Source: an uncultured Bacilli bacterium (GTDB lineage Bacteria > Bacillota_I > Bacilli_A > RF39 > UBA660). From it: a stretch of 64,000 bases of DNA. Each line of letters starts with the position of its first letter. The stretch's first letter is position 1. The position numbers were made by a program, and so were the translations under genes. Below are positions 29,745 through 58,999 of this stretch, piece after piece. Location: positions 3,295 through 67,294 of the forward strand of contig CALVQQ010000001.1 in NCBI GenBank assembly GCA_944358255.1, written 5' to 3'. The notes beneath the pieces are model-generated. The model searched no databases, had not been told where the DNA came from, and worked only from the letters and a program-made list of their open reading frames with translations.

Positions 29745-30821
29745 TAACACCTCTTTAAATAACTTTCTATAAATATATCTATATCTCCATCTAATACTTT
29801 TTCTACATTAGATGTTTCTGTATTTGTTCTTAAATCTTTCACTAGTGAATAAGGGTGCATTACGTAGTTTCTTATTTGGCTTCCAAAATTGACATCCATT
29901 ACTGACCCTTTTAAATTGCTTAGTTGTTTATCGACTTTTTCTCTTTCTATTATATATAGTTTTTGTTTTAGTATGTCTATTGCTTTTTCTTTATTTTGAA
30001 TTTGACTTCTTTCATTTTGACAGGTCACTACAATACCAGTTGGTAAATGTGTTATTCTTACTGCTGAGTCTGTGGTATTAACGCTTTGTCCTCCAGCTCC
30101 GCTACTTCTGTAGACGTCTATTTTTAAGTCTTTTTCTTGTATGTTTATTTCTATATTTGTGTTTATTTCTGGTGTTACTAGAACTGAAGCAAATGATGTA
30201 TGCCTTCTTTTGTTTGAGTCAAATGGACTTATTCTAACTAATCTGTGAACTCCTGTTTCACTTTTTAAATATCCATAGGCGTTTTGTCCTTTTATTTTGA
30301 ATGTTACTCCTTTAATTCCTACTTCTTCTCCTGGTTGTTCGCTTATTATCTCGTATTTATAGCCTTTTTTTTCAAAATATCTAATATACATTCTTTTTAC
30401 CATGTTAGCCCAATCGTTGGACTCTGTTCCGCCTGCGCCTGAATGTATTTCCATATAAGCATTGTTGTGATCAAATTCACCATTTAATAATACTTCTATT
30501 TCAAACTTTTCTATTTTTGTTTTTATTTCTTTAATATTTTGTTTTAAGTCTTTTAACATATCCTCATCTAAGTCTATTTCGGTAAACTCAATCATGTTAT
30601 TTATTTCTTCTTTTAATTTTGTTACTTCTTCAATAGATTTTTTTATATTGCTAATTTCACTCATTATATCTTGTGAATCTGGTCTAGTCCAAAATTCTGG
30701 TGTTTCTGATTCTTTTTGTAAACTTTGTAATTTTGCTCTTTGACCATCTACGTCAAAGTGACCTCCATATTGTTTCTATTTCTTTGTTTAATTTTAATAA
30801 TTCATTTTTTGCTTCTTCCAT
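29744..30821 (-). CDS. prfB: peptide chain release factor 2, expressed via programmed +1 ribosomal frameshift
   Basis: Frame 0: ATG at 30819-30821 gives MEEAKNELLKLNKEIETIWRSL then UGA. Shift site GGAGG-TCA-CTT-TGA-C at 30752-30765. The +1 frame continues …DVDGQRAKLQSLQKESETPEFWTRPDSQDIMSEISN… through GGQ-containing RF2 (SPFDSNKRRHTSFASV…GAGGQ). Confidence 0.9.
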
Positions 30822-44249: not shown

Positions 44250-45326
44250 TTAAAATTTTTTTAATGCAAAATTTACTAAGTCTTTCACAGAATATCTATT
44301 TATGATTTTTGATTGATTTTTTGTCATTGTTTCTTGCATATTTTTATCTTTTAATAACTTCAATGTGTTTTTTACTACTTCTTCAACATCGTTTGATATT
44401 AAACTAAGTCCGTTTTTATAAAAAAACTCTGCATTATAACTTTCTACTCCAGGTATTGGCATTAGATGAATCATAGGTTTTCTTATCACTGCAACTTCAG
44501 TACTTGTGAGACCGCCAGGTTTGGTTAATACAATTTTGCTTGCTTGTATATATTCATTTATGTTGTTTACGTATCCTTTAACTATAAGGTTCGGATTGTT
44601 TATCCTTTTCAATATGGAATATAATTTATCATTATTTCCGCATATTGCTACTACGTAAGTTTCTGGAATATTTTTTAATATTGCTTCAACTATTTCTTTC
44701 ATTTTTCCAAATCCCATACTGCCTGATGTAATTAGAATAATGTATTTGTCTGTTGGTAAATTTATGCTGCTTTTTATTTCATGAAAAGAAGTTGAAACAG
44801 ATATGCCAAAATCTAACAGTACTTCTTCTTTAAAACCTTTTTTTATAAATTCTTCTTTTAATGTTTTATGTGGTATAACAAAATAGTCTGGATTTGTTTC
44901 TTCCCAAAATGGTATAGCACGGTAATCTGTCGCTACATTTATAAGTTTTATGTCTTTCCCTTCTTTTTTTAATGCGGTTATTGCCATTGAGGGAAATAAG
45001 TGTGGGCATATTACTATGTCATAGTCGTTGTCTTTTACATATTTATAAACTTTTCTTTTACCCAGTTTATTTAGGGTATATACTGGGCTAATTATTCCTG
45101 TTTTGCTATAGGTTTCTCCTAATTTATAAGCAATTTTAAATAAATCTCCATTTCCTTTCGTAGAATCTAAATATATTTTTTCTACTCTTTTTTTTGCTTT
45201 TGGACCTATAATATCAAAGTAGTCCGCAAATTTAATTTCTACATTGTTTTTTTAAATTCTCTTTCTATATAGTGTCCACAAGCATTGTGTCCGCCACCAG
45301 TACTGCAAGATAATATTAATATTTTC
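44250..45326 (-). CDS. UgtP/MGDG-synthase-like (GT28) glycosyltransferase, interrupted by a frameshift in an A7 homopolymer
   Basis: N-terminus from ATG 45324-45326 reads MKILILSCSTGGGHNACGHYIEREFKK then TM*. The run ttttttt at 45247-45253 (minus-strand A7) breaks the frame. With one extra A the frame continues NVEIKFADYFDIIGPKAKKRVEKIYLDSTKGNGDLFKIAYKLGETYSK… into the track ORF 44250..44987, which holds the GT28 C-terminal domain. Confidence 0.6.
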
Positions 45327-45681
45327 ATGGTTTCACTTCCCATTATTAAATATTTCTTATACTTAAAGTAATAACTAATATTAAAAATCTAGTTAAGTAA
45401 ATTTATTAATTTTTAATCTTTCTTTCAATTTATAAATATTATGCTTTTATTTATAGTAATAATACTAAGAATACTAAAATAAAAATACTGAAAAAATAAA
45501 CAACTTTATATATTAAAATAGTTAATCTATATAAATGATAAAGTTGTTCTATCATTTTGTAATATTTTTTTGATATTTGTATTATATTACAAATTTATGA
45601 ATTCTAAATGAACTTTGTTAACATAATCATATTTAGCTTAACTCTTATGAACATCTCTGCTTTATTTAAAAGATTTTTTAT

Positions 45682-46335
45682 TTATCTAATTGTAGGTTTA
45701 ACTATTTCAAACGTTCCAAAATGTTCATACCGGTCTTCTAGAATTTTAGAAAATACAGTGATTTGCGGCTTTATATAATAACCATTTTTATGAGACCAAG
45801 TTCCATCACTATTTTGACGTATAAAATGGAAGTCTTGAATTACTCCATTCGTAAGTGAAAGATAAACAGCAATTTTATATCCACCATGCGTATTCGCACT
45901 TTGTTCATCTGTCTCATAAGTTTGAATATTTAATGCTTGTATATCTTTTAAAAAACAATTTAAAAAAGCATTTTTGTCTTTTACAATAGTATAATAAGAA
46001 ATAGAATTAATAAAGCCAACGTTAAAAGGGAAAACATCTGTAATTTCTAATGCGCAATATTTTTTGATTAAATAATCTAAACTTGGTAAGCCTAATGCGT
46101 AGGTATAGCAATTTCCTAAAAAATATTTTGTTAAATCATCTTGAAAGTTCATATCATTACGACTTAATTTCACTAATTCTTTTAATGCTTGTAAATATAT
46201 TATTTCTATTTCAGCACTGCTTTTACATAAACTCGCTTTTTTATATAATTGAATTAGCCTAGCTTTCGCCGCAGCTTCCTTAAATAAATCTATATTAATT
46301 TTTATTTCCCCTTTCGATAAAAAATAATATAACAA
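45682..46335 (-). CDS. hypothetical protein, possible papain-fold (NlpC/P60-superfamily-like) Cys/His hydrolase
   Basis: 217 aa with …GNCYTYALGL… (Cys), roughly 50 aa later …HGGYKIAVY… (His), then a further His (…WSHKNGYY…). Spacing resembles Cys-His-His/polar triads. No detectable signal peptide. Isolated in an AT-rich gene-poor tract. Confidence 0.3.
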   Translation of the reverse strand: MLYYFLSKGEIKINIDLFKEAAAKARLIQLYKKASLCKSSAEIEIIYLQALKELVKLSRNDMNFQDDLTKYFLGNCYTYALGLPSLDYLIKKYCALEITDVFPFNVGFINSISYYTIVKDKNAFLNCFLKDIQALNIQTYETDEQSANTHGGYKIAVYLSLTNGVIQDFHFIRQNSDGTWSHKNGYYIKPQITVFSKILEDRYEHFGTFEIVKPTIR

Positions 46336-47386
46336 AACAAAAATTTAAAGTCAAGAAATATGTTTTAAATATCATTTAATACTTATTATGAAAACTGTAT
46401 ATAACCATAATTCTAAAAAAATAAAAATGTATACAGTCAAATATAACGCTTTTATATATGTTAAATAACTAATTGTTCAGTTGTGTATATAAATATTCTT
46501 GTATATATCATCAATGACTTTTAACAAGTTTTTAAAATTAAAGAATTTTCTTTTGGGGTTTAATGTATTGCCGCATGAGTTAATAAAATATATTTTATAT
46601 TTTTAATATTCTTATTTTATTAAATGATTAATTTGCTATTTTTAAATTTTGAAGTTTGTTAACGCTTTTAATTCTTTTTATACCTCTATTTTATTGCATA
46701 AGTTTATTATAAATTACAAGTTTTTTTAAAATTATTAAAATTCAGTTGTTCTACACTTTTTTGCAAAAATATTTGGAATATATAAGTTTTAATTTATAGT
46801 TTCTAATTTCGTACAATTTTGATGACAATATTTTATTCTTTTTTATAAAATCAAGTAATTTTTTAGTAATTCGATATTGTCTTCTATTTTTTTCTTTTGT
46901 TGATTACAATTGATTTCCATTTTCATCAGTAATTTGAAAACTATGAACTATTTTATTTCTAAATATTAACTAGTTCATTAAATATAATAGATATTTTATC
47001 ATTTTGTGTAACACTTGTGATTATTTCATCTATCACCGAAAGTAAATTCTTAAAAGTTTTATTAATTAAGTCTAGTTTATTATAATTTTTACTATCTATT
47101 TTCAAAATATTTTCAATAATAAATAAGTTGCTACTATTAAGCGTACACAAAGCAATTCCAAATAATTCTCTATATTTTTTACTAGGTAATGCTTGTTTGC
47201 TATATTCTTCATATATAATTAAAATTTTTCTTCCCTTTAATATTTAAATTATTGACTAAATATAAAACACATTACATAAAAAGGATGTCAACATTATAAA
47301 TATTTTTAACATCCTTTATTCATTGCATATTTTAAATTTCACTCGAACAAGTTATAATGGTTTTATATTTGTCATTATTAATTTTT

Positions 47387-47440
47387 CCTTATTTTATGCT
47401 ACTTTCCGCAGCAATTCTTGTATTTTTTCCCCGAACCACA
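47387..47440. repeat. imperfect direct repeat copy of the secA 3' terminus (attachment-site remnant)
   Basis: ccttattttatgctactttccgcagcaattcttgtattttttccccgaaccaca aligns at about 80% identity with 52478-52533. Reverse translation gives CGSGKKYKNCCGK* , the SecA C-terminal zinc-finger end. Confidence 0.7.
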
Positions 47441-47710
47441 TGAAAATCCCAAGACAGTATTTTCAGTATTATAAGTATTATCATAATTACCATTATTTCC
47501 TTATTTTACGGACATCGAGGGACTAGTACTATCAGTATTATTAGTACTATAATCAACATATATTATTCAATAAATGTGGTCAAAATGTGGTCAAATCTAT
47601 CAAACGATCTATTTAAACTATCTTGCTCACATCATAATTATACTACAATTAACTTATTTAGTAAATCAGTTGAATATAATAAAAACTCTATGTTTCAAAC
47701 ACAGAGTTTA

Positions 47711-48963
47711 TTAAGTATTAAATTTAATAGTTTCACTAATTGTATCAGATGATACCAATCTATTCATCTTATCAATAGCTTGTCTAATTTCTTCGTTTAA
47801 AGCGCTTACATAGCTTCTTTCCGTAACTTTAGTACTAGCATGACCTAATATAGCAGCAATATCCTTTAGAACCACGCCATCATGCGCTGTACGAGTGGCG
47901 AAGGTTCCTCGTAAATCATAAAAACGACAATTAGTATTTAATAGTTCCTTAATAATACTATTTGGGTCTTTAATCATATCAGTACCAGAATACGTTCCAT
48001 CTTTTCTCGTAAATACTATTTTTACTCTATTATGTTTAGAAGTATTTTCTACAACCTTATATTCTATTAACTTACCATACTTATTTCTTACTTCTTCTAA
48101 TACATATTGTTTATACTTCTTTCCATACTCTTTTTTGTACTTATTTTGTAATTTTTTATAATTACACAGTACTAAATACAGAGTGTCACAAATATAAACT
48201 TCTCTACAACTTCCAACTGTTTTAGTTGTACCTAAATACCATCTACCTTTTTTCTCGTTATCTTTGGCATATACAGTTTTATTTATTTTTATAATTCTAT
48301 TCTCTAAATCAATATCATCCCAGGTTAACGCAAATACCTCTCCTGTTCTCATTCCTGTATAACAAGCAGTAAGAAATGCACATATAAACACTTTATTATC
48401 TTTAAATCTATTCAAGATAATTTTTATTTCTTCATTAGTATAAATGTGACCTATATCATTTTTTTTAATTCAAATGATAATACTCTAGGTATTTGTAAGT
48501 CACCCGCTGGATTATTTTTAATAAATCCAAAATAATAAGTTGCATCTCTTAAAGAACTTTTAATTACTTTTTGATAATTTCTTAATGCCTCTTTCTTATT
48601 GGATGTTTGATACAATTTTAATAATGCTTGATTAAGAATATATAATGTTAATTTTGATAATTTATAATTACCTAATTCTTTTTTAATATTACTAAAAGAT
48701 TCTCTATACCTTTTTGCTGTAGAATATTTATAATTTACTTCAAAATATTCTTTCATCCAATAATCTAAATATTCAGAATATAACATTTCATATTCATTTA
48801 CTTTTTCTCCATTTATAAATTCATCATAGGCTTTTTGTCCTGCTAAATATGCTTCGTTTTTAGTTTTAAAACCTGATTTAGTAATTTGTTTTCTTTTTCC
48901 ATTTACTTTTCCTGCTTCAAAACAATACTGATATACATTTCCTCTTTTCCTAATATTGATCAT
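47711..48963 (-). pseudogene. int: phage-type tyrosine integrase, split by a frameshift at an A8 homopolymer
   Basis: N-terminal part (48451..48963) MINIRKRGNVYQYCFEAGKVNGKRKQITKSGFKTKNEAYLAG… is an arm-binding/SAM-like domain. C-terminal part (47711..48415) carries catalytic R…HxxR…Y (…LGHASTKVTERSYV…). The frames overlap at tttttttt 48459-48466; one extra A gives continuous …LKKNDIGHIYTNEEIKIILNRFKDNKVF…. Confidence 0.8.
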
Positions 48964-49004
48964 CTTATCATCTTCCTTTCTCTTTGATCATTATTATTTT
49001 ATAC

Positions 49005-49040
49005 GAAAAAACAGTAGCACCTTAAATCTACTGTTTTAAC
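49005..49040. terminator. bidirectional rho-independent terminator
   Basis: AACAGTAG / CTACTGTT stem flanked by an A-run and a T-run, between the integrase and ORF 49042..49263. Confidence 0.5.
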
Positions 49041-49041
49041 C

Positions 49042-49263
49042 TTATATTAATTTTGATAATATTTCATTTTTTTCTAATACATCTTTTGGTACTAAGTTCC
49101 CATTTTCTATTTTTATAAATTCCATTATCTGTACATTTTGTTCAACATATTTTCCTACAAATATGTATGCTAAACTACATTTTGAGATACTATTTTCTTT
49201 TAAAAACAAATTATAACTATCATCAACAGATGAGAAGTATAAATTCTTTTCCACAGGATTCAT
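49042..49263 (-). CDS. hypothetical protein (73 aa)
   Basis: ORF only; no recognisable motif. Confidence 0.25.
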   Translation of the reverse strand: MNPVEKNLYFSSVDDSYNLFLKENSISKCSLAYIFVGKYVEQNVQIMEFIKIENGNLVPKDVLEKNEILSKLI

Positions 49264-49517
49264 CTTTTTTATTCATTATTTAAAATTTTACCGGAACTTA
49301 AACGTAAATGAGCTTTTTAATAATTTTTAATTTACTATTGATAATTAAATATTTGCACTTAAAATACCAATTAAATTTAATATCTATACTAGTATAAAAC
49401 AAAATTCAACATCTTAAAAATAAAGCTATATTTACAACTTTTCAATATTCTATATTTTTAACTTAGTATTTTATGCATGAATATTTATATTTGGTGTATA
49501 ATATTTTTGAAAGGAAA

Positions 49518-50822
49518 ATGAATATGAAAAGGTTTTTAAATTTATTTTTGGTATTATTTTTATTAAGTGGGTGTAATGAAAAAGAAGTAGTTAAAGATGT
49601 TCAAGAAGATACATTGAATTATGCTTTTGTTATTGGTAAAAATGATGAGTTTCTTTTAATTCAAGATAATAAAGGAATTATATATGAAAAAAATATATCT
49701 GGTTTAAATCCTGGTGATATGATAAAAACTTATGATGATATTAGTAATTTAAATGATTATGAAATTATTTCTGATGATGATTTTCCGTTAGCTTTTAATG
49801 ATAATGGGATTTTTAAAGATTATTATAATATTTCTTATCAAAAAGTAAAAAATATGAGTTTGGATGAGAAAATTGGACAAATTTTACTTGTTAGATATCC
49901 ATCCGAAAATCAGACCGATGTTTTAGAAAAATATCAATTTGGTGGTTATGTGTTTTATGCGAAAGATTTTAATGATAAAACTAAAGATGAAGTTATTAAA
50001 ATGATTAATGATAATCAAAATGTGGCTAAAACGCCTATTTTAACTGCAGTAGATGAAGAAGGTGGTAAGGTTAATAGAATTAGTACTAATTCTAACTTAG
50101 CTAATGAACCTTTTAAATCCCCTAGGGAACTTTATTTATCTGGTGGTTTTGATTTAATCAAGGAAGATACTATTAAAAAAAGTAAATTACTTTATGAACT
50201 TGGTATTAATTTGAATTTAGCGCCTGTTGCTGATGTATCTACTAACCCTAATGACTATATGTATTCAAGAACACTTGGTGAAAACACTGATAAGACTAGC
50301 GAATATGTTAAAACGGTTATTAAATCTAGTAATGGTTTGGGTGTTACTTATACTTTGAAACATTTTCCTGGTTATGGTAATAATACTGATACTCACCAAG
50401 GAACTTCTTTGGATAATAGAAGTTATGATGATATTTTAAATAATGATTTACCTCCTTTTAAAGTTGGTATTGATGAAGGGGCTTTATCTATTTTAGTTAG
50501 TCATAATATAGTGAGTAGTATAGATTCTGATTTACCTTCTTCTTTATCTTATAAGGTTCATAATTTGCTTAGGGATAATCTTAATTTTACGGGCATAGTT
50601 ATAACTGATGATTTAGATATGGGGGCAATCGGTGATGTTAAATCATCTACTGTTAAAGCTGTTTTAAGCGGGAATGATTTAATTATTACTACTGATTATG
50701 AAAGCAGTATAAATGCAATTAAAGAAGCTATTAATAATGGTGAAATTTCTGATAAATTAATTGATAAGACTGCTACTAGAGTAATCGCTTTTAAATATTA
50801 TAAAGGCATGATAAAAGGATAA
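49518..50822 (+). CDS. glycoside hydrolase family 3 N-terminal-domain lipoprotein (NagZ/YbbD-like beta-N-acetylhexosaminidase)
   Basis: Signal peptide with lipobox LLSGC. GH3 motifs …GQILLVRYP…, …KTPILTAVDEEGGKVNRI…, …KHFPGYGNNTDTHQG…. SD AAAGGAAAA. Confidence 0.7.
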   Translation: MNMKRFLNLFLVLFLLSGCNEKEVVKDVQEDTLNYAFVIGKNDEFLLIQDNKGIIYEKNISGLNPGDMIKTYDDISNLNDYEIISDDDFPLAFNDNGIFKDYYNISYQKVKNMSLDEKIGQILLVRYPSENQTDVLEKYQFGGYVFYAKDFNDKTKDEVIKMINDNQNVAKTPILTAVDEEGGKVNRISTNSNLANEPFKSPRELYLSGGFDLIKEDTIKKSKLLYELGINLNLAPVADVSTNPNDYMYSRTLGENTDKTSEYVKTVIKSSNGLGVTYTLKHFPGYGNNTDTHQGTSLDNRSYDDILNNDLPPFKVGIDEGALSILVSHNIVSSIDSDLPSSLSYKVHNLLRDNLNFTGIVITDDLDMGAIGDVKSSTVKAVLSGNDLIITTDYESSINAIKEAINNGEISDKLIDKTATRVIAFKYYKGMIKG

Positions 50823-50838
50823 TTTTTGAGTTATCCTT

Positions 50839-51225
50839 TTAAATTTCACCAATATATTCTAATAATTTTAAGAACATTCTGATAAATTTCTTATCTAAAC
50901 CTAACTTGCCTAATTTTCTTATAGCAATTCTTTTTTTCTTAATTGGTTCTTCTCCAAATAATATTTCGTCTATTTTTTCTTTCATCTTTAATTCATTACT
51001 ACCTGTAGCAATATTATATAATTCATCTATTCTCGTAATAAGATGATTAATTAAAATCATTACTATGATAAGGATAACCATATAATAAAAGCTAAACATA
51101 AAACTACCAAATACTGCAAAATGTACAACTAATAGAAGGATTTCTGGTAATAATAAAAATCCTATAACAAACATTATTAATAATTCTTTTTCATTTAATT
51201 TTTTCTTAATTATCATAAATATCAA
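50839..51225 (-). CDS. hypothetical membrane protein
   Basis: 128 aa with 2 predicted TM helices. Separated from the next ORF only by an in-frame TGA. Confidence 0.35.
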   Translation of the reverse strand: MIFMIIKKKLNEKELLIMFVIGFLLLPEILLLVVHFAVFGSFMFSFYYMVILIIVMILINHLITRIDELYNIATGSNELKMKEKIDEILFGEEPIKKKRIAIRKLGKLGLDKKFIRMFLKLLEYIGEI

Positions 51226-51459
51226 TCAAAAAATAAGCATTATAATCATTACATTATATACATCGGTAATTAAATATATAATCATATTCACATTAAATAT
51301 TGTTACTCCAGATAAATATATAATACTTTGAGTAATTAATAATACAAATATAAATAGAGAAAACATTAATATAAATATCCTTAACACCTTTAATAGATTA
51401 GATATTTTATGATATGTTTGCATTCTTTTATTATTTCCTTCATCTTTCCAGTACTCCAT
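51226..51459 (-). CDS. hypothetical membrane protein
   Basis: About 77 aa from MEYWKDEGNNKRMQ… with 2 TM helices. The upstream part of the track ORF overlaps the istB remnant on the other strand, so the internal Met was chosen. Confidence 0.3.
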   Translation of the reverse strand: MEYWKDEGNNKRMQTYHKISNLLKVLRIFILMFSLFIFVLLITQSIIYLSGVTIFNVNMIIYLITDVYNVMIIMLIF

Positions 51460-51485
51460 AGCACTACTATCATATAAGTCTTTAT

Positions 51486-51940
51486 ATAACTGCTGGAGTT
51501 GGTAAAACACATTTAGCAGTTTCTTTAGGGATAGAAGCAGCTAAACATAGAAAAAGTGTTTACTTTATTACTTGTCATAATCTTATGACAAAATTAAATA
51601 AAGCACAAAAAGAAAATAGATTAGATAAGCAATTGCAACATTTAGCACAGTATAAATTGTTAATAATAGATGAAATTGGTTATTTACCTGTAGACCATCA
51701 AGGATCTAATTTATTATTTCAATTAATTGCTAAAAGATATATGACTAAATCTACAATTGTAACAACAAATATGCCGTTTTCAAGATGGGGGGGGAAGTAT
51801 TTAGTGATAATACTTTAGCAAGTGCAGTATTAGATAGGTTACTTCATTATTCACATATTATAAGAATTACAGGTAATTTTTATAGAATTAAAGATAAAAT
51901 TGTAGAATCTGACTCAAGAACAAATAAATATAATGAATAA
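51486..51940 (+). pseudogene. istB: IS21-family IstB (ATP-binding helper) remnant, 5'-truncated and frameshifted at a G8 run
   Basis: Begins at Walker A ITAGVGKTHLAVSLGIEAAKHRKSVYF…IIDEIGYLPVDHQGSNLLFQLIAKRY…NMPFSRWGG. Frame breaks at gggggggg 51787-51794, then continues EVFSDNTLASAVLDRLLHYSHIIRITGNFYRIK… No IstB N-terminus or istA is present. Confidence 0.7.
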
Positions 51941-52148
51941 AATTCTTTGTTTCTTTCTTATAAGAAAGAAAGCCTATCGGCGAGATAGACTTATAACACT
52001 GCTGGTTTCTTGTTTTACTTCTTTTTCATAAAAGAAGTAAAGCCACCGGCAGGTAGAAATATAATTTTCCTTAAATATTGAGAATGTGCTAGTAATAAAA
52101 ATTATAAGTTTTTAACTTTGACATATTTTTAAGTTTTGATGTTGACAT

Positions 52149-52259
52149 TTACATTTTAAATCCAGATTTACTTTTGAATTTTCTTTTCCCACCTTGGGGA
52201 GCAATTTCAAACTTATACTGAAATACCTTTCCTCTTTTTACTACATTTACTTTTCTCAT
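52149..52259 (-). pseudogene. second tyrosine-integrase N-terminal stub (36 aa), paralogous to the integrase at 48963
   Basis: MRKVNVVKRGKVFQYKFEIAPQGGKRKFKSKSGFKM* parallels MINIRKRGNVYQYCFEAGKVNGKRKQITKSGFKTK… and terminates prematurely. Lies about 230 nt downstream of the secA stop. Confidence 0.55.
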
Positions 52260-52477
52260 TACACAATTCCTTACTTTATGTAAACGGAGTTATCTTTAAC
52301 AAAAAAGTTAGCAAATGAATGCTAACTTTTTTGTTTCCAAAATTGTTTCCAAAAATTTTTCCCTTATTTTATAAGGCTTTTCAGAGGTTTTGGTAACATC
52401 TTTTTTAATTTTGGAAACAAAATGGAAACAAATCGACTATTTTTTATGATTTTTTGATTTTTAAAACCTTCGCAAAC

Positions 52478-52533
52478 CCTTATTTTATAAGCTATTTACC
52501 ACAGCAATTCTTATACTTTTTCCCTGAGCCACA
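52478..52533. repeat. secA 3' terminus copy (att site at the intact gene)
   Basis: Partner of 47387-47440; spans the secA stop codon at 52492-52494. Confidence 0.7.
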
Positions 52534-54984
52534 AGGACATGGTTCATTTCTGCCAATTTTTTTTGATACTCTTTTAGGAGCTTTTTTTGTTTCTTCTTTT
52601 GTATCATTGGTTTTTATATTTTTGTTTTCATGTCTCTCTAGGTTTTGACGTACTTCAGCTTTTAATAAAAAGGTAGTAATTTCTCTATTAATTTGAGCTA
52701 ACATGTTATCAAATAATTCAAATCCTTCTAAAGCATATGCTTGTAATGGATTAGTTTGAGCATAACCTCTTAATCCAATTCCCTCTTTTAAATGTTCCAT
52801 TGCGTCTAATTGATCCATCCAGTTTTTATCGAGTATTCTTAAAGTTATTGCTTTTTCAAAATCATTTTGTATTTCTACTGGAATATCTTTTAATTTTTCT
52901 TCATAATCTTTAACTACTATTTTGTATATATAGTCAATTATTTCATCAACTGTCTTACTTTCTAATTCCTTTTTATTTAATTTTTTGCTCTTTAATAAAT
53001 TAGCATTAAATCTCTCGATTATATTATCAATATCATTTATTGTTAATTTGTCCTCTGGCGGTATGTGACTCTTTACTTCTTGAGAAACGTACTCTTTAAA
53101 TGTTTCTAATATTCTGTCTCGTATGCTTTCTTGATCAAGAATCTCATTTCTTCTTTCATAAATTATTTCTCTTTGTCTACTTATAACATTGTCATAATCC
53201 AATAGGGCTTTTCTTCTATCATAATTGAATCCTTCAACTCTTTTCTGCGCACTTTCTATATTTTTGGATAACATTTTATGAGTAATTGGTTGGTCTTCTT
53301 TTATTCCAAATGTTGTCATTATTGCCTTCATTCTATCTGACCCAAACCTTGCCATTAAATCATCTTCCATTGATATATAAAATCTTGTTATACCAGGGTC
53401 TCCTTGTCTGCCACTTCTTCCTCTTAATTGGTTATCAATTCTTCTTGAATCATGTCTTTCAGAACCAAGTACCATTAAACCGCCTAATTCTTTTACACCT
53501 TCTCCAAGTTTTATGTCTGTTCCACGACCGGCCATATTAGTTGCAATCGTAACAGCTCCTTTTTGCCCAGCGTTTTTAATGATTTCTGCTTCTCTTTCAT
53601 GATTTTTAGCATTTAATAATTCGTGCTTTATTCCTCTCTTTTTTAATAGTGAACTTAATAATTCTGAACTTTCAATTGAAGCTGTACCCACCAAAATTGG
53701 TTGGCCTGTTTTATGCACGGTTTCAATAGTATTTGCTAATGCATTGTATTTACCTTTTATATTTATATATACTAAATCGTTCATGTCTTCTCTGATAACA
53801 GGCTTGTTTGTTGGAATTTCAATTACGTACATATTATATATATTTCTAAACTCTTCTTCTTCAGTCTTGGCTGTTCCTGTCATACCAGATAGTTTATTGT
53901 ACATTCTAAATAAATTTTGGAAAGTTATTGTTGCCAGTGTTTTTGTTTCACTATTTATTGTTACTCCCTCTTTTGCTTCTAAAGCTTGATGCAATCCATC
54001 TGAATATTGTCTTCCATGCATTAATCTGCCTGTAAATGCGTCTACTATTATAATTTTATCGTTGTCTACAACATAGTCGACATCTTTTTTAAATGCATAA
54101 TTTGCTGTTAATGCTTTATCTAAATTGTGTACTAACATTGCATTATTAATATCATATAGATTATCTACTTTTAAAAGTTTTTCTGATTTTTTAACTCCTT
54201 CTTCAGTTAATGTTACTTTCTTTGTCTTCTCATCTATTACATAATCATCTAATGTAAGACTTTTTGCAGCTTTATCTGCTAATATATATAAGTCCGCACT
54301 TTTACTTACGCCACCTGAGATGATTAGTGGAGTTCTCGCTTCGTCTATTAATATTGAATCGACCTCGTCAATAATTGCAAAATTCAAGCCCCTTTGGACT
54401 CTATTCTCACTTCTTACAACCATATTATCTCTAAGATAGTCAAATCCAAGTTCATTATTCGTAGTATATGTAATATCTTGATCATATGCTTGTTTCTTTT
54501 CTTGCGGCGTTAGTTCTTTTTTATTTATTCCTACGGTCACACCTAATAATTCATAAATTTTTCCCATCCACTCAGCATCACGGCAAGTTAAATATTCATT
54601 TACCGTAATAATGTGGACGCCTTTACCTTCTAGTGCGTTTAAATAAGCCGGCATTGTAGATGTTAATGTTTTTCCTTCACCAGTTTTCATTTCGGCTATA
54701 TTGCCAAAATGTATTGCTAGTCCTCCGATTATTTGAACTTTAAATGGCTTTTCTTTTAATACCCTCCATGATGCTTCTCTAACTAGTGCAAATGCTTCAA
54801 CTATTAAGTCATCTAAAGTTTCCCCATTAGATAGTCTCTTTTTAAATTCTTCTGTCTTTTCTCTAAAATCTGTGTCTTTTAATTTAGACATTTCTTCTTC
54901 TTTTTCTATTATTTCATCTGCTAATTTTTCAAATTTTTTTAGTTCTCTATTTTCATGATTAAATATGTTACTTAAAAATCCCAT
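52492..54984 (-). CDS. secA: preprotein translocase ATPase SecA
   Basis: 830 aa with DEAD-like motor domains and C-terminal zinc finger CPCGSGKKYKNCCGK. Confidence 0.93.
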   Translation of the reverse strand: MGFLSNIFNHENRELKKFEKLADEIIEKEEEMSKLKDTDFREKTEEFKKRLSNGETLDDLIVEAFALVREASWRVLKEKPFKVQIIGGLAIHFGNIAEMKTGEGKTLTSTMPAYLNALEGKGVHIITVNEYLTCRDAEWMGKIYELLGVTVGINKKELTPQEKKQAYDQDITYTTNNELGFDYLRDNMVVRSENRVQRGLNFAIIDEVDSILIDEARTPLIISGGVSKSADLYILADKAAKSLTLDDYVIDEKTKKVTLTEEGVKKSEKLLKVDNLYDINNAMLVHNLDKALTANYAFKKDVDYVVDNDKIIIVDAFTGRLMHGRQYSDGLHQALEAKEGVTINSETKTLATITFQNLFRMYNKLSGMTGTAKTEEEEFRNIYNMYVIEIPTNKPVIREDMNDLVYINIKGKYNALANTIETVHKTGQPILVGTASIESSELLSSLLKKRGIKHELLNAKNHEREAEIIKNAGQKGAVTIATNMAGRGTDIKLGEGVKELGGLMVLGSERHDSRRIDNQLRGRSGRQGDPGITRFYISMEDDLMARFGSDRMKAIMTTFGIKEDQPITHKMLSKNIESAQKRVEGFNYDRRKALLDYDNVISRQREIIYERRNEILDQESIRDRILETFKEYVSQEVKSHIPPEDKLTINDIDNIIERFNANLLKSKKLNKKELESKTVDEIIDYIYKIVVKDYEEKLKDIPVEIQNDFEKAITLRILDKNWMDQLDAMEHLKEGIGLRGYAQTNPLQAYALEGFELFDNMLAQINREITTFLLKAEVRQNLERHENKNIKTNDTKEETKKAPKRVSKKIGRNEPCPCGSGKKYKNCCGK

Positions 54985-56118: not shown

Positions 56119-56721
56119 GTGAAAGATGTATTTGTAAATTCTTTAATGTATAGTGTTAATAAATATAAAGATTTTGATGATGTAAAACTGAAAGAAATTA
56201 AATATGGGATTGAATCTTTGTATTTGGCCGTATCAAAGACTATTGTGATTTTTTCTTTGGCTTTGTTACTGGGTTTATTTAAAAGCTTGTTGCATTTAAT
56301 GATAGCTTATACACTTTTACGATTAAATGGTTTTGGATTGCATGCAAAAAAAAGTTGGCAATGTTGGGCCGGATCTATTTTTCTGTTTTTACCAATAGCC
56401 TATTTATGTTCGACTATTTATATTGAAAAGGAAATACAATTGATTTTGTCTAGTTTTTGTTTAGTTCTAATAGGAAAGTACGCGCCAGCTGATACAGAAA
56501 AAAGACCACTGATTAATATGTCAAAGCGTAGATTGCACAAAATTTTATGTGTTATTACAACTTTGATGTATATCATAGTTATAGCCAGCTTAAAAAATAA
56601 TTATTATTGTAACATCTTGTTCTCGGCAATAGTTATTCAGACAATGTTAGTTTTACCAATTAGTTATAAAATATTTAAGTTAAGATATAACAATTATAAA
56701 TCATATATTAAACAAAATTAG
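56119..56721 (+). CDS. agrB: AgrB-family membrane peptidase (autoinducing-peptide maturation)
   Basis: 200 aa. …LRLNGFGLHAKKSWQCWAGSIFLFLPIAYL… and …GKYAPADTEKRPLINMSKRRLHKI… align with AgrB catalytic His/Cys regions and the YAPA…K(K/R)P motif. GTG start with SD GGAGGA. Confidence 0.7.
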   Translation: MKDVFVNSLMYSVNKYKDFDDVKLKEIKYGIESLYLAVSKTIVIFSLALLLGLFKSLLHLMIAYTLLRLNGFGLHAKKSWQCWAGSIFLFLPIAYLCSTIYIEKEIQLILSSFCLVLIGKYAPADTEKRPLINMSKRRLHKILCVITTLMYIIVIASLKNNYYCNILFSAIVIQTMLVLPISYKIFKLRYNNYKSYIKQN

Positions 56722-56760
56722 TAATTAACTTAAATATTTTTATAAAAGAAAAGGAGGTAT

Positions 56761-56883
56761 ATGATGAGAGTTTTTGCAAGCATAGTTTCAGCTTTAGGTA
56801 CTTTTTTTGCTCTAACAACTAGTGGTGCTTCTTGGCTTGGTTGGTTTGATGAAGCTGAAATGCCTGAAAGTTTAATTAAATAA
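56761..56883 (+). CDS. agrD: AgrD-like autoinducing peptide precursor (40 aa, no cysteine)
   Basis: Not in the ORF track (<60 aa). SD AAAGGAGGT then MMRVFASIVSALGTFFALTTSGASWLGWFDEAEMPESLIK: amphipathic N-terminal helix, hydrophobic core SWLGWF and acidic recognition tail DEAEMPESL. Lies 40 nt after agrB. Confidence 0.55.
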   Translation: MMRVFASIVSALGTFFALTTSGASWLGWFDEAEMPESLIK

Positions 56884-56904
56884 TATTTAACGTATTATTA
56901 GTTG

Positions 56905-56935
56905 AAATGGCCATAAAAATGGCCATTTTTATTGT
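56905..56935 (+). terminator. rho-independent terminator after agrBD
   Basis: AAATGGCCAT-aaaa-ATGGCCATTT 10 bp stem followed by a T-run. Confidence 0.7.
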
Positions 56936-56979
56936 ACTTGATTAGTGGATTTGATAAATAATTAAAAAAATAAGATGTT

Positions 56980-58293
56980 TTACGTATGGTTATTTCTTAT
57001 TTTTAATTTTGTTACAAAATTTTTACTTTTGTTTATATATTGTTCATACTCAATTGTTGTAGAGGATCTTTTTAATTTCTGTGCTATAAATAACCCTATC
57101 CCTCTATTTTTCCCTTTTGTAGAATAATATTTTTCGTTAATGAGATTAATATTTACCTTATTACTAAAACTATTTTCTATATAAAAAACAATAAAATTAT
57201 TTTCCATGTAAATATCTAATATGATCATCTTTTGATCGCTTTTATTTGCAGCTTCTATTGCATTATCTAAGAAAATATTTAACAATCTACATAATTTAGA
57301 ATAATCTTTGGTGTTTCTTTCGTTAAGTAGATTATTTAAATTTTTTATACAATTAAATGTAAAATTTATATTATTTTTTTCGATAATGTTTATTTTGTAA
57401 TATAATATTCCTTTTATACCTGCAGGTAAATAGCCTATATTCCTGTATTCTGTTTTATAAGATGTAGAATAGTTATTTATCAGTTCTTTTAAAAGTTTCT
57501 TAAATTCTATACTATTTTTGTCCTCATAACTATTTAATAGGACTAGATTATTTAGCATTTCGTGTTTGTTAATTCTATATTTATCAATCAAGAATTCATA
57601 TTTCTTCATGTATTCTAAAATTATTTTTTGATTTTCTTCTACGTCTATAATTTTGTTTTTATATTTTATTAATATAGTCATGCAACTTAAAATGATAATA
57701 CTAGAGACTAAATTGTTATAGTAATTTTTGATATTTATGTTAATTGTATAGATTATTATTATATATATTATAAACAAATAAAAAATGATTAGTAAGATTC
57801 TAACTATTACAGCTTGCTTATCTATAATTAAATATAAAATTTTATTTAAAAACTTTTTTGTGCTTTTTATGGATAATGTCAATATTAAATTTAAAACGAC
57901 TAATATTGAAAACAAGTTTCTTATGACTAATGAGTTTATGCTAGTTATAATGTAACTATTAGAATTAACAATCAAAAATATAAATGAATATACCAATTCA
58001 AATAATATTTCTACACTATATAGTAATAAAACTGTTATAAATATATTTTTAAAATTATCTCTATAAATTGTTGTTATAAAAACGACATTTAAAAATAAAT
58101 TTATAAATATTTTATACTCATTAAATTCAGATAAGCCAATATATATTTGTATTAATGAAAATAGTAATATTAATAATATATGATTTAATTCAATTTTTTC
58201 TTTTTGTCTTTTTGTTAATATTTTATAACCATAATATATTGCAAATACGCCAAAGCAAACACATAAATATGCAAATATATAGTTAATATCCAT
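56980..58293 (-). CDS. agrC: AgrC-like (HPK10) sensor histidine kinase
   Basis: Six or more N-terminal TM helices. H-box …RINKHEML…, N-box …LLNIFLDNAIEA…, G-box …STKGKNRGIGL…. Confidence 0.75.
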   Translation of the reverse strand: MDINYIFAYLCVCFGVFAIYYGYKILTKRQKEKIELNHILLILLFSLIQIYIGLSEFNEYKIFINLFLNVVFITTIYRDNFKNIFITVLLLYSVEILFELVYSFIFLIVNSNSYIITSINSLVIRNLFSILVVLNLILTLSIKSTKKFLNKILYLIIDKQAVIVRILLIIFYLFIIYIIIIYTININIKNYYNNLVSSIIILSCMTILIKYKNKIIDVEENQKIILEYMKKYEFLIDKYRINKHEMLNNLVLLNSYEDKNSIEFKKLLKELINNYSTSYKTEYRNIGYLPAGIKGILYYKINIIEKNNINFTFNCIKNLNNLLNERNTKDYSKLCRLLNIFLDNAIEAANKSDQKMIILDIYMENNFIVFYIENSFSNKVNINLINEKYYSTKGKNRGIGLFIAQKLKRSSTTIEYEQYINKSKNFVTKLKIRNNHT

Positions 58294-58999
58294 TTGCCAT
58301 TAGTTCCTTTTTGTGAGTTTTAGATAAAAAATATATCTCTTCACCTGTTTCAAATATTATCTTATTATCTTTCCATACAAAAGCTTCGACTTTATCTAAA
58401 TTAACCAAGCAAGCTTTATGCGTAAATTTAAATCTACCGTCTAATTTTTGTGCTAAATCGGATATGTTCATTATAACTTTATATTTTTTGTCATTTATAG
58501 TATTTATAATGCATTTTCTCTCAACAGTATCTCTATAAATATATAGTATTTTGTTTATATCAATGTTATAATCAATGCCTTTATATTTAAACTTTAATGT
58601 TTTTCTACTAGCAATTTGTTTTAAACATATATCAAATAGTTCAAATAAATTTTTCTCTGCTTCATACTGTTTGTTAACAAAGTCTAATATTTGTAATCTT
58701 TGCTTAAAAGTATCATATGCCATGCCACCATTTACAGTAAATATTATAATTGGGCTTGTCCAATCTGTTTCACGAACTTTTCTTGACAGATCTATTGCAT
58801 TTGTATTTGGTAGTTCAAAATCAAATATATAAATATTGTTATTTTCTGATGTTGAAATTAAAATATCTAGCTCTTGCGTTCTTTTTTCAAATTCAATTAT
58901 GTCAAACTCCATTTTGTTTTTCATCATATAATTTAATATTATATTTTTTATTTTCTTTCGATGAATTTTATTATCTTCGACAACCACAAAATTTATCAT
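58283..58999 (-). CDS. agrA: AgrA-like LytTR-family response regulator
   Basis: N-terminal receiver (VVVEDN…) and C-terminal LytTR domain (…KYKVIMNISDLAQKLDGRFKFTHKACLVNLDKVE…). Confidence 0.8.
   Translation of the reverse strand: MINFVVVEDNKIHRKKIKNIILNYMMKNKMEFDIIEFEKRTQELDILISTSENNNIYIFDFELPNTNAIDLSRKVRETDWTSPIIIFTVNGGMAYDTFKQRLQILDFVNKQYEAEKNLFELFDICLKQIASRKTLKFKYKGIDYNIDINKILYIYRDTVERKCIINTINDKKYKVIMNISDLAQKLDGRFKFTHKACLVNLDKVEAFVWKDNKIIFETGEEIYFLSKTHKKELMANGY

What the first reader, a model, noticed from the sequence alone, without database searches (positions are those of the whole stretch)
47387..52533. Degenerate integrative element(s) targeting the 3' end of secA, with the SecA zinc-finger terminus duplicated as an att repeat
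A roughly 55 nt imperfect direct repeat (47387-47440 versus 52478-52533, about 80% identity) reproduces the last 13 codons plus stop of secA (CGSGKKYKNCCGK*) about 5 kb from the real gene end. This is the hallmark of site-specific integration into a gene 3' end with target restoration. A frameshifted full-length tyrosine integrase (47711-48963) lies inside. A 36 aa stub of a paralogous integrase N-terminus sits 230 nt from the true secA stop. These point to successive tandem insertions at the same att site, since decayed. Cargo: a GH3 NagZ/YbbD-like lipoprotein, two small membrane proteins and an IS21 istB fragment. The usual secA-prfB linkage is broken; prfB is 22 kb away.
Basis: seen in the sequence. 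Interest (0 to 1): 0.65.

Follow-up and report, generated by a model that had tools for sequence, protein, structure and literature searches.

The report
Mobile island inserted at secA's end
A 5.1-kb mobile DNA island sits inside the last 13 codons of the essential secA gene and carries its own spare copy of those codons, so the gene stays whole; this island and many others use the same spot across a group of uncultured gut bacteria.

Summary
Window 47399-47440 repeats the last 13 codons plus stop of secA (52492-52533). It matches 35 of 42 bases, all 7 differences are synonymous, and simulations never exceeded 28 matches.

- Of 53 related secA loci with at least 1.5 kb downstream, 27 carry a related tyrosine integrase and/or a duplicated secA end there.
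- One relative (L009) has secA abutting prfB, which is an empty site.
- The same island (integrase stub, membrane protein, GH3, 73-aa ORF, integrase) is at least 97% identical in four host lineages whose SecA is only 64-67% identical. It is therefore one recently mobile unit, not debris made in this genome.
- Junction polymorphism places the crossover at TGTGG plus 7 nt, at the 5' edge of the repeat.
- The 36-aa stub is the remnant of a second integrase gene and is inherited with the island. The IS21 piece is a 605-bp later insertion.
- The integrase "frameshift" lies in a poly-A run (A8 here) that varies from A7 to A10 between copies. A8 with an otherwise intact gene recurs in five lineages, and an A9 copy gives an intact 417-aa protein.

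This is a new target gene for a known kind of element. Whether the poly-A run acts as a switch is untested.

The parts
52492..54984 (-). secA (830 aa), the target gene. Its last 19 residues are the SEC-C zinc-binding motif.
52478..52533 (-). attL copy of the repeat. It comprises the last 13 codons of secA (52495-52533), the stop (52492-52494) and the half-palindrome CTTATAAAATAAGG (52478-52491), which mimics the loop of the native secA terminator.
52522..52533 (-). Inferred crossover region at attL: TGTGG (52529-52533) plus the variable 7-mer CTCAGGG (52522-52528). To the secA side the sequence is host-specific. From 52521 downward it is identical in all copies of the island.
   Evidence: Window versus L081: the last of many secA differences is at 52522, then 9 differences in 5085 bp. 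L054 identity starts at 52524. Junction tables.
52260..52477 (-). P' arm (the secA-proximal end of the island). It holds four TTGTTTCCA motifs (52331, 52343, 52412-52420, 52423-52431; two direct and two inverted), the full palindrome CCTTATAAAATAAGG at 52362-52376, and a hairpin at 52301-52332.
   Evidence: 4 of the 5 TTGTTTCCA copies in the window lie here..
52149..52259 (-). 36-aa integrase stub (arm-binding domain start). It is the remnant of a second, paralogous integrase gene and a conserved part of the island.
   Evidence: Pfam Arm-DNA-bind_4 E=0.0015. 99.3% identical in L054. The exact peptide is on 367 contigs. Decay series of 30 to 155 aa.
51490..52094 (+). IS21 remnant (the C-terminal part of istB plus the IS end). 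It is a 605-bp insertion absent from the L054, L087, L090 and L092 copies of the island. It carries a further indel in a G-run in this window.
50839..51510 (-). Membrane protein gene (175 or 206 aa in other copies). Here it is cut by TGG-to-TGA at 51226-51228, a change private to this window.
   Evidence: No family match.
49473..50822 (+). GH3-family glycosidase cargo gene with a lipoprotein signal (LLSGC). It is NagZ-like but scores below the equivalog cut-off.
   Evidence: Pfam Glyco_hydro_3 1e-57. NCBIfam beta-N-acetylhexosaminidase 134.6 bits against a cut-off of 207.
49042..49263 (-). 73-aa orphan ORF just upstream of int, at the position where neighbouring elements have an HTH_17 excisionase. 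Its function is unknown.
47711..48963 (-). Tyrosine integrase. The gene is intact except for a -1 frame change in a poly-A run (T8 on the + strand, 48459-48466). With A9 it encodes the 417-aa protein P0001.
47441..47710 (-). P arm (the distal end of the island). It holds two TTGACCAC motifs (47576-47583, 47587-47594), ATAATACT-type repeats (47456-47553) and GAAAATAC (47457-47464) 16 nt from TGTGG.
   Evidence: GAWAATAY-N16-TGTGG is also seen in the P arms of L002, L048, L052, L078 and L092.
47387..47440 (-). attR copy of the repeat: TGTGG (47436-47440), the 7-mer TTCGGGG (47429-47435), pseudo-codons down to the stop at 47399-47401, and ATAAAATAAGG (47387-47397).
44954..47386 (-). Probable remnant of a further cassette behind the island. 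Its first ~110 nt after the repeat (47279-47386; the 160-nt blast match includes the repeat itself) resemble the secA-proximal leader of cassettes in L006, L051, L061 and L078. It contains the 63-aa and 217-aa orphan ORFs and has no distal repeat.

Best explanation
Window 47429-52528 (about 5.1 kb) is a small integrative island that entered the chromosome by tyrosine-integrase recombination. The partners were its attP and an attB formed by the last 13 codons of secA.

attP contains a secA-like end. It runs TGTGG, a 7-nt overlap, about 10 synonymous codons, a stop, and a mimic of the terminator loop. Integration therefore swaps the real end of secA for the island's copy and leaves the SecA zinc finger intact. 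The previous end is pushed 5.1 kb downstream, where it forms attR.

The island is a composite that moves as one unit. Its parts, in order, are a left arm with the stub of a dead integrase, a later IS21 remnant, a membrane protein, a GH3 lipoprotein, a 73-aa ORF, and a working-type integrase next to attR. It belongs to a set of unrelated islands and integrase-less cassettes that pile up in tandem at this site in a clade of uncultured gut Bacilli.

In this genome the copy is probably locked. Its integrase is out of frame at a hypermutable poly-A run (A8), and one cargo gene has a nonsense mutation.

Shown here: the repeat, the family-wide site use, the recent transfer between hosts, and the boundaries to within about 12 nt. 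Inferred: the exact cleavage positions, tolerance of mismatched overlaps, and the present inactivity.
For: 1. Repeat. It matches 35 of 42 bases, 7 of 7 differences are synonymous, and it lies more than 10 SD above chance.

2. Site use. Integrase relatives lie downstream of secA in about 20 of 80 loci. Duplicated CGSGKKYK.CCGK* ends occur in 12 loci, with three copies in L078. Of 53 loci with at least 1.5 kb downstream, 27 are occupied.

3. Empty site. In L009 the secA stop is followed after 1 nt by the prfB start. prfB lies +0.3 to +8.5 kb from secA in ten loci. In L052 the same island lies exactly between secA and prfB, flanked by the repeat.

4. Mobility. Window 47894-51489 is 97% identical to L052 and L054. 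The window is 99.8% identical to L081 over 5085 bp. The island occurs in four SecA groups that are 64-67% identical. The exact stub and the 73-aa peptide are on about 365 contigs.

5. Boundaries. The P arm is constant up to TGTGG. P' is constant from AAAAAGTATAAG. The 7-mer between them varies independently of both sides.

6. Enzyme. Pfam finds arm-binding, SAM-like and catalytic domains. R, K, R, H and the nucleophile Y align with Tn1549 Int. dN/dS is 0.10-0.43 in both halves.
Against: - No excised circle or attP junction was found. The pattern scans of JGI metagenomes and IMG/VR gave 0 hits.
- No empty site was found in the very same species. Contigs of that species all carry the island.
- The 33 nt between the 7-mer and the terminator mimic exist in three versions at attL, in L086/L089 and in L087. 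A single fixed crossover does not explain this without later gene conversion.
- The core shows no clear inverted repeat.
- The two arms carry different repeated motifs, so it is unclear whether the resident integrase can act on both ends.
- No excisionase was identified.
Confidence: 0.9

Rival explanations
1. Two separate elements inserted one after the other into this genome's secA end and then decayed in place. On this view the stub is what is left of the first one.
For: The stub sits where many relatives have a full integrase, 230-280 nt after the secA stop. Tandem arrays are common at this site. A decay series of the stub exists.
Against: The stub, with the same 36 codons, is joined to the same cargo and integrase at 97-99.8% identity in four divergent hosts. 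It is on 367 contigs. No internal att copy separates the stub from the cargo. The fusion therefore predates arrival in this genome.
Confidence: 0.07
2. The integrase frameshift is a reversible mutational switch, or simply the first and most likely lesion. The poly-A run slips during DNA replication. A9 is ON, A8 is OFF, and integrated copies are mostly seen OFF because that state stabilises them.
For: Run lengths A7, A8, A9 and A10 all occur. L086 and L088 share their other lesions but differ A8 versus A10. An A9 copy only 9 differences away from the window gives an intact 417-aa protein. In-frame relatives exist. A P0002-type allele looks like an A7 put back in frame by a 13-nt deletion. Some A8 copies have further lesions.
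Against: A8 with an otherwise intact gene recurs in five lineages down to 68% nt identity. It dominates by contig count, 117 contigs against 1 for the exact alleles. No A7-only or A10-only allele was seen, although a free random walk should produce them.
Confidence: 0.5
3. The A8 allele is functional through recoding. A -1 ribosomal slip on A_AAA_AAA, or insertion of one A by RNA polymerase, makes full-length integrase at a low rate. The 170-aa DNA-binding N-terminal product is the default, as with IS3 OrfA and OrfAB.
For: The C-terminal frame is exactly -1, and the run contains the classical slippery heptamer. The zero-frame stop follows two codons later in all A8 lineages. Both halves are under purifying selection, with dN/dS 0.10-0.43 at dS 0.5-1.3. 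The island carrying A8 is found in several host backgrounds and array positions.
Against: There is no conserved stimulatory structure after the site. The consensus fold is -4.7 kcal/mol and starts about 37 nt away. There is no Shine-Dalgarno-like stimulator upstream. A7 alleles would need a different shift. In-frame alleles and a compensatory deletion show that being in frame is selected. Transfer could also rely on integrases of neighbouring elements acting in trans. No paper on this was found.
Confidence: 0.25
4. The repeat is chance similarity in AT-rich DNA, or a leftover of a secA paralogue or a local duplication, and is unrelated to integration.
For: AT-rich windows give many short repeat families.
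Against: The match is 35 of 42 against a simulated maximum of 28. Only synonymous differences are present. The same boundary at TGTGG is seen in 12 of the first 80 related loci and again in the loci fetched later, next to integrases. Only 13 codons are copied.
Confidence: 0.01

Closest known systems
ICESt1/ICESt3 of Streptococcus thermophilus (integration into the 3' end of fda) and their CIME accretion arrays. This comparison is from established knowledge and was not tested here.
   Same: A tyrosine integrase targets the 3' end of a housekeeping protein gene. Direct repeats keep the coding end intact. Elements accumulate in tandem, including ones without an integrase that could be moved in trans.
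   Different: The target is secA, not fda. The island is only 4.5-5.1 kb and has no conjugation or mobilisation genes that I could detect. The hosts are uncultured gut Bacilli. No excision has been shown.
tRNA- and tmRNA-targeting phages and genomic islands that carry the 3' part of the target gene in attP (for example mycobacteriophage L5 and P4-type islands). This comparison is from established knowledge.
   Same: attP carries a copy of the target's 3' end, so integration restores the gene. The displaced end marks the far junction. A highly conserved target sequence allows a broad host range.
   Different: Here the target is protein-coding, so the spare end is kept by synonymous-only change (7 of 7 differences). 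It also includes a mimic of the terminator loop.
Tn916/Tn1549-type integrases (the closest solved structure is Tn1549 Int, PDB 6EN0/6EMY)
   Same: The domain order is the same: an arm-binding N-terminus, a core-binding domain and a catalytic domain. R, K, R, H and Y align. A variable 7-mer at the junctions would fit tolerance of mismatched overlaps, which is known for that family.
   Different: The relationship is very distant (E=3.6e-6). The closest phage integrases are at most 32% identical. This enzyme is site-specific for one gene end. The first His of HxxR is Tyr.
IS3-family transposase OrfA/OrfAB -1 frameshifting at A6G/A7, and homopolymer contingency loci. This comparison is from established knowledge.
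   Same: A slippery A-run lies between a DNA-binding N-terminal part and the catalytic part. The downstream frame is -1, and a stop follows closely in the zero frame.
   Different: The enzyme class is different. Run length is not fixed (A7 to A10). There is no stimulatory structure. No product has been shown.

Membership tests
Tyrosine recombinase / phage integrase family | A catalytic domain matching PF00589, with N-terminal arm-binding and SAM-like core-binding domains | tested here: met
   Phage_integrase 2.7e-15, Arm-DNA-bind_4 1.2e-7 and Phage_int_SAM_3 1.3e-5, all above the curated cut-offs. PHROG integrase 3.7e-58.
Tyrosine recombinase / phage integrase family | Catalytic residues R, K, H-x-x-R, H/W and the nucleophile Y | tested here: met
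   The alignment to Tn1549 Int gives GMRTGE (R), TTKT (K), YDLR (R present, the His replaced by Tyr), LGH (H) and RSY (Y). The His-to-Tyr change is shared by all clade members read.
Tyrosine recombinase / phage integrase family | An uninterrupted reading frame in this window | tested here: not met
   The A8 run at 48459-48466 shifts the frame by -1, and the N-terminal frame stops two codons later. The gene is intact if the run is A9, as in L081.
Site-specific integrative element that restores its target (Campbell type) | Direct repeats of the target's end flank the element, with the integrase inside | tested here: met
Site-specific integrative element that restores its target (Campbell type) | An unoccupied site exists in relatives | tested here: met
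   In L009, secA abuts prfB. L001 (SecA 94%) has a native-looking terminator and no copy within 3.4 kb. No empty site was found in the same species.
Site-specific integrative element that restores its target (Campbell type) | The same element sits at the same site in unrelated hosts | tested here: met
   Four SecA groups 64-67% identical carry the island at 97% nt identity or more.
Site-specific integrative element that restores its target (Campbell type) | An excised circular form or attP junction is observed | tested here: inconclusive
   Pattern scans of JGI metagenomes and IMG/VR gave 0 hits, but those collections may hold few of these gut lineages. attP-like junctions were seen only inside tandem arrays (L084).
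Site-specific integrative element that restores its target (Campbell type) | A recombination directionality factor (excisionase) is present | tested here: not met
   The 73-aa ORF at the expected position has no family match. It shows no similarity to the HTH_17 proteins of neighbouring elements and is an orphan.
Programmed -1 frameshift (IS3-like recoding) | A slippery X_XXY_YYZ heptamer with the downstream ORF in the -1 frame | tested here: met
   A_AAA_AAA is present. The C-terminal frame starts one base back.
Programmed -1 frameshift (IS3-like recoding) | The shift configuration is conserved across diverged homologues | tested here: inconclusive
   A8 occurs in five lineages down to 68% nt identity, but A7, A9 and A10 also occur.
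Programmed -1 frameshift (IS3-like recoding) | A stimulatory element (downstream structure or upstream SD-like sequence) | tested here: not met
   The consensus fold is -4.7 kcal/mol and starts about 37 nt after the site. Reading one search shows no SD-like sequence upstream.
Programmed -1 frameshift (IS3-like recoding) | A trans-frame protein product | not testable with these tools
   This needs a reporter assay, RNA-seq or proteomics.
IS21 (IstA/IstB) | A complete istA and istB with terminal inverted repeats | tested here: not met
   Only IstB profile positions 133-235 of 238 are present and there is no istA. It is a 605-bp insertion relative to L054.
NagZ beta-N-acetylhexosaminidase (GH3) | Scores above the NCBIfam equivalog cut-off | tested here: not met
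   134.6 bits against a cut-off of 207. The Pfam GH3 N-terminal domain is clearly met, at 196 bits.

The most novel reading that the evidence does not exclude
Two linked ideas remain open.

(a) The poly-A run in this integrase clade could be a built-in switch. The default product would be a 170-aa arm- and core-binding protein. Full-length integrase would be made only after a -1 slip (by the ribosome or RNA polymerase) or an A8-to-A9 mutation. That would be an IS3-like OrfA/OrfAB logic not described for tyrosine integrases.

(b) The secA tail could serve as an integron-like platform. Short integrase-less cassettes, each ending in a spare SecA terminus, would be stacked there and moved in trans by integrases of neighbouring elements. 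Cassettes seen here carry restriction-modification systems, DUF3644/EC042_2821, radical SAM and SDR genes.
Probability: 0.2. Interest if true: 0.75.

Novelty: new member of a known kind. Interest (0 to 1): 0.5.

Why it matters
secA has not, as far as five full-text searches show, been described as an attachment site. Here it is occupied in about half of the genomes of a whole clade of uncultured gut Bacilli, often by several stacked elements.

The case shows how an element can use a protein-coding target as safely as a tRNA gene. It carries a synonymous spare copy of a near-invariant zinc-finger motif together with a mimic of the terminator.

For people annotating gut MAGs, a duplicated CGSGKKYK.CCGK* downstream of secA is a simple marker of island boundaries. 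It also marks a hotspot for defence and glycan-use cargo.

The hypermutable poly-A run in the integrase gives a testable example of how such islands may be kept quiet.

Tried and rejected
- TGA read as Trp (genetic code 4), to explain the split membrane gene. Rejected, because TGA ends several housekeeping genes and every other copy has TGG.
- Sequencing error as the cause of the integrase frameshift. Rejected, because the exact frameshifted N-terminal product is on 117 contigs from many assemblies and A8 is seen in independent Illumina MAGs.
- The crossover lies at the ATAAAATAAGG motif after the stop. Rejected, because the attR sites of L052, L083 and L085 lack that motif.
- A third secA-end copy further downstream in the window. 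None was found.
- Homology between the window region 39-47.4 kb and the surroundings of secA in 80 relatives. None was found.
- Excised circles or attP junctions in JGI metagenomes and IMG/VR. 0 hits.
- Close integrase relatives in IMG/VR. None.
- The 73-aa ORF as an excisionase. No support.
- A conserved RNA structure after the slip site. None.
- Literature on secA as an att site, or on frameshifting in tyrosine integrases. Nothing relevant; the two candidate papers concerned SecA2.

Full report
**What is in the window.** secA lies on the minus strand (52492-54984) and ends ...CPCGSGKKYKNCCGK*. Its last 19 residues are a Pfam SEC-C motif. A second copy of the last 13 codons plus stop lies 5093 bp downstream on the same strand (47399-47440), followed by the shared motif ATAAAATAAGG. 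Over the 42 coding bases, 35 match, and all seven differences are synonymous third-position changes. The next best match in the window is 24 of 42. Two hundred Markov simulations never exceeded 28.

**Genes between the copies**, listed in secA orientation:
- a 36-aa arm-binding stub (52149-52259);
- an IstB fragment;
- a membrane protein gene cut by one stop codon;
- a GH3 lipoprotein on the other strand (NagZ-like but below the equivalog cut-off);
- a 73-aa orphan ORF;
- a tyrosine integrase split into 170-aa and 234-aa parts.

**The host.** A scan of one genome per species with SecA returned 80 loci. All are uncultured gut Bacilli or 'Tenericutes'-labelled MAGs, with SecA 63-94% identical. 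The window has 28% G+C and uses TGA as a stop codon.

**Is secA's end an attachment site?**
- Relatives of the integrase lie downstream of secA, on the same strand, in about 20 of these loci. Many start 230-280 nt after the stop, and several loci hold two copies.
- A second, and in L078 a third, in-frame CGSGKKYK(N/Q)CCGK* lies 1-9 kb downstream of secA in 12 of these loci. The homology always starts at the same TGTGG.
- Of the 53 loci with at least 1.5 kb of downstream sequence, 27 have an integrase relative and/or a duplicated end.
- L009 shows the unoccupied state. The secA stop is followed after one base by the start of prfB, which has its usual CTT TGA C frameshift site.
- prfB lies +0.3 to +8.5 kb from secA in ten loci. 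In L052 the island described here sits exactly between the two genes, bounded by the repeat.
- In the window prfB is 21.8 kb away. Housekeeping genes (rplI, dnaB and others) lie between, so that distance is not the island's doing alone.

**One unit, recently mobile.**
- Window 47894-51489 is 97% identical to L052 and L054, whose SecA is only 64-65% identical to the window's.
- Window 52095-52524, which includes the stub, is 99.3% identical to L054. There it abuts the membrane gene directly, so 51490-52094 (the IS21 remnant) is a later 605-bp insertion.
- A contig from another metagenome (L081) differs from the window at 5-15% of positions along secA up to 52522. It then differs at only 9 positions in the next 5085 bp.
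- Ten further contexts of the stub show the same gene order in four SecA groups that are 64-67% identical to one another. The island is either first after secA or second behind another element or cassette.
- The exact stub and the 73-aa peptide are each on about 365 contigs in public assemblies.
- The stub, cargo and integrase therefore travel together, and the stub did not decay in this genome.
- The stub is nevertheless a remnant. Proteins with the same first 35 residues exist in 30, 36, 71, 97 and 155-aa versions, and the longest runs through the arm-binding and core-binding regions of an integrase.
- The island is best read as an old fusion of two elements that now moves as one.

**Where the exchange happens.**
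- In attR junctions of the island in different hosts, the island side (...GGGATTTTCA TGTGG) is constant. Host- or neighbour-specific sequence starts right after TGTGG.
- In attL or internal junctions, the left side varies up to TGTGG plus 7 nt. The island side is constant from AAAAAGTATAAG onward.
- The 7-mer takes several forms (TTCGGGT, CTCAGGG, GAGTGGA, TTCGGGG, TTCTGGA) independently of both sides. This is what a 7-bp overlap that tolerates mismatches would leave.
- This places the crossover at window 52522-52533 and 47429-47440. It is an inference from polymorphism, not a mapped cleavage.
- Three versions of the next 33 nt at attL need later gene conversion or variable resolution, and I could not settle which.
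- The motif CCTTATAAAATAAGG is a palindrome that forms the loop of native secA terminators in several relatives. Its core, CCTTATTTTA on the plus strand, occurs only four times in the window, all in the att regions.
- The two arms carry different repeats. TTGTTTCCA occurs four times near the stub and TTGACCAC twice near the integrase.
- Several different elements have GAWAATAY exactly 16 nt before TGTGG.

**The integrase and its frameshift.**
- The protein has arm-binding, SAM-like and catalytic domains. R, K, R, H and the nucleophile Tyr align with Tn1549 Int, the closest solved structure, at a remote E=3.6e-6. Phage integrases are at most 32% identical.
- The frame change lies in GAATT-A8-TGATATAGG. 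The downstream frame is -1, and A9 restores a 417-aa protein. That protein exists as such in L081.
- The same site is A8 in L054, L078, L061 and L002, which are 97, 84, 82 and 68% identical in DNA. In each of these the rest of the gene is intact.
- The site is A7 in L052, L003, L006 and L089, all with further lesions. It is A10 in L088, which shares its other lesions with the A8 copy L086.
- Both halves are under purifying selection, with dN/dS 0.10-0.43.
- The exact 170-aa truncated product is on 117 contigs, against 1 contig for the intact protein.
- In-frame relatives also exist. One type looks like an A7 allele repaired by a 13-nt deletion.
- No conserved structure follows the site.
- The run is therefore hypermutable. 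I rate a reversible or first-hit mutational OFF state as most likely, and recoding as possible. I cannot separate the two with these tools.
- Lesions private to this window are the TGG-to-TGA change at 51226-51228 and an indel in the IstB remnant.

**Beyond the island.**
- The window and L083 (SecA 97%) align through the island to 47400 and again from 44953. The 2.4 kb in between is unique to the window's species, and L083 has a 0.58-kb remnant of another cassette instead.
- The first ~110 nt after the window's attR resemble the secA-proximal leader of cassettes in L006, L051, L061 and L078.
- So 44954-47386 is probably the remnant of a further cassette without a distal repeat.
- Elsewhere, short integrase-less cassettes bounded by secA-end copies carry a CfrBI restriction-modification pair, DUF3644/EC042_2821, a radical-SAM protein and an SDR. 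L092 has a type I system.

**Comparison and novelty.** The principle is well known from tRNA-targeting phages and islands and from ICESt1/fda with its accretion arrays (established knowledge): a target's 3' end carried in attP, restoration of the gene, and tandem accretion. What is new is the target, the last 13 codons of secA, and its heavy use in this clade. Five full-text searches found no description of secA as an attachment site or of frameshift control in tyrosine integrases. Absence from that library is not proof. I file it as a new member of a known kind, with the poly-A switch and the cassette array as the parts that could turn out to be new variants.

Noticed in passing
L040, L046, L030, L033, L064, L076, L080, L041, L047, and the first cassettes of L054, L090, L091 and L092 (downstream of secA): Short islands of 1-2.8 kb lie between secA-end copies. 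They have no integrase and hold 1-3 genes, all on the secA strand. Cargo includes a CfrBI R-M pair, a type I R-M system, DUF3644/EC042_2821, radical SAM with pentapeptide repeats, and an SDR. The arrangement looks like a cassette array at the secA tail.
   Followed up: partly
window 44954-47386: This segment is unique to this species compared with L083. It starts with a leader similar to cassettes in L006, L051, L061 and L078. It includes a hairpin around 47271-47320 whose stem differs by paired changes in relatives. It holds orphan ORFs of 63 and 217 aa.
   Followed up: partly
window 44250-44987 and 45239-45343: An MGDG-synthase-like glycosyltransferase (family 28) is split into an N-terminal 34-aa piece and a 245-aa C-terminal ORF. 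L083 and L091 keep only the C-terminal part. It is a decaying gene next to the island hotspot.
   Followed up: partly
window 47484-47528 (the P arm of the island): Five independent metagenome assemblies of this same species end their contigs inside this AT-rich repeat region. This suggests that the arm is shared by several elements in those samples, or that the junction is heterogeneous.
   Followed up: no
L084 1124-7453 and L089 4356-7433: Larger elements sit ahead of the GH3 island in tandem arrays. They carry a resolvase, a DnaB_C-like protein, sigma-70 region 4, an HTH_17 excisionase and a 419-423-aa integrase. Their distal arm is the same as the window island's P arm.
   Followed up: no
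window 56119-58999: An agr-like quorum-sensing set (AgrB, a small peptide ORF, a histidine kinase and a LytTR regulator) lies just upstream of cspA-hpf-secA. It varies between the related strains L083, L086 and L088.
   Followed up: no
L054, L090, L091 and L078 (third copy): sequence just before the internal secA-end copies: A second type of distal arm has CTCCCAAAA-like repeats. A third type (L033, L047) has GGYTGTTTTAAT. At least three unrelated element families therefore share the same secA-end site.
   Followed up: no
window 29744-30664 and L009 12494 onward: prfB shows its usual +1 frameshift site (CTT TGA C after an AGGGGG) in L009. The window's prfB ORF likewise lacks its first exon-like part in the ORF list, as expected for this gene.
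   Followed up: no
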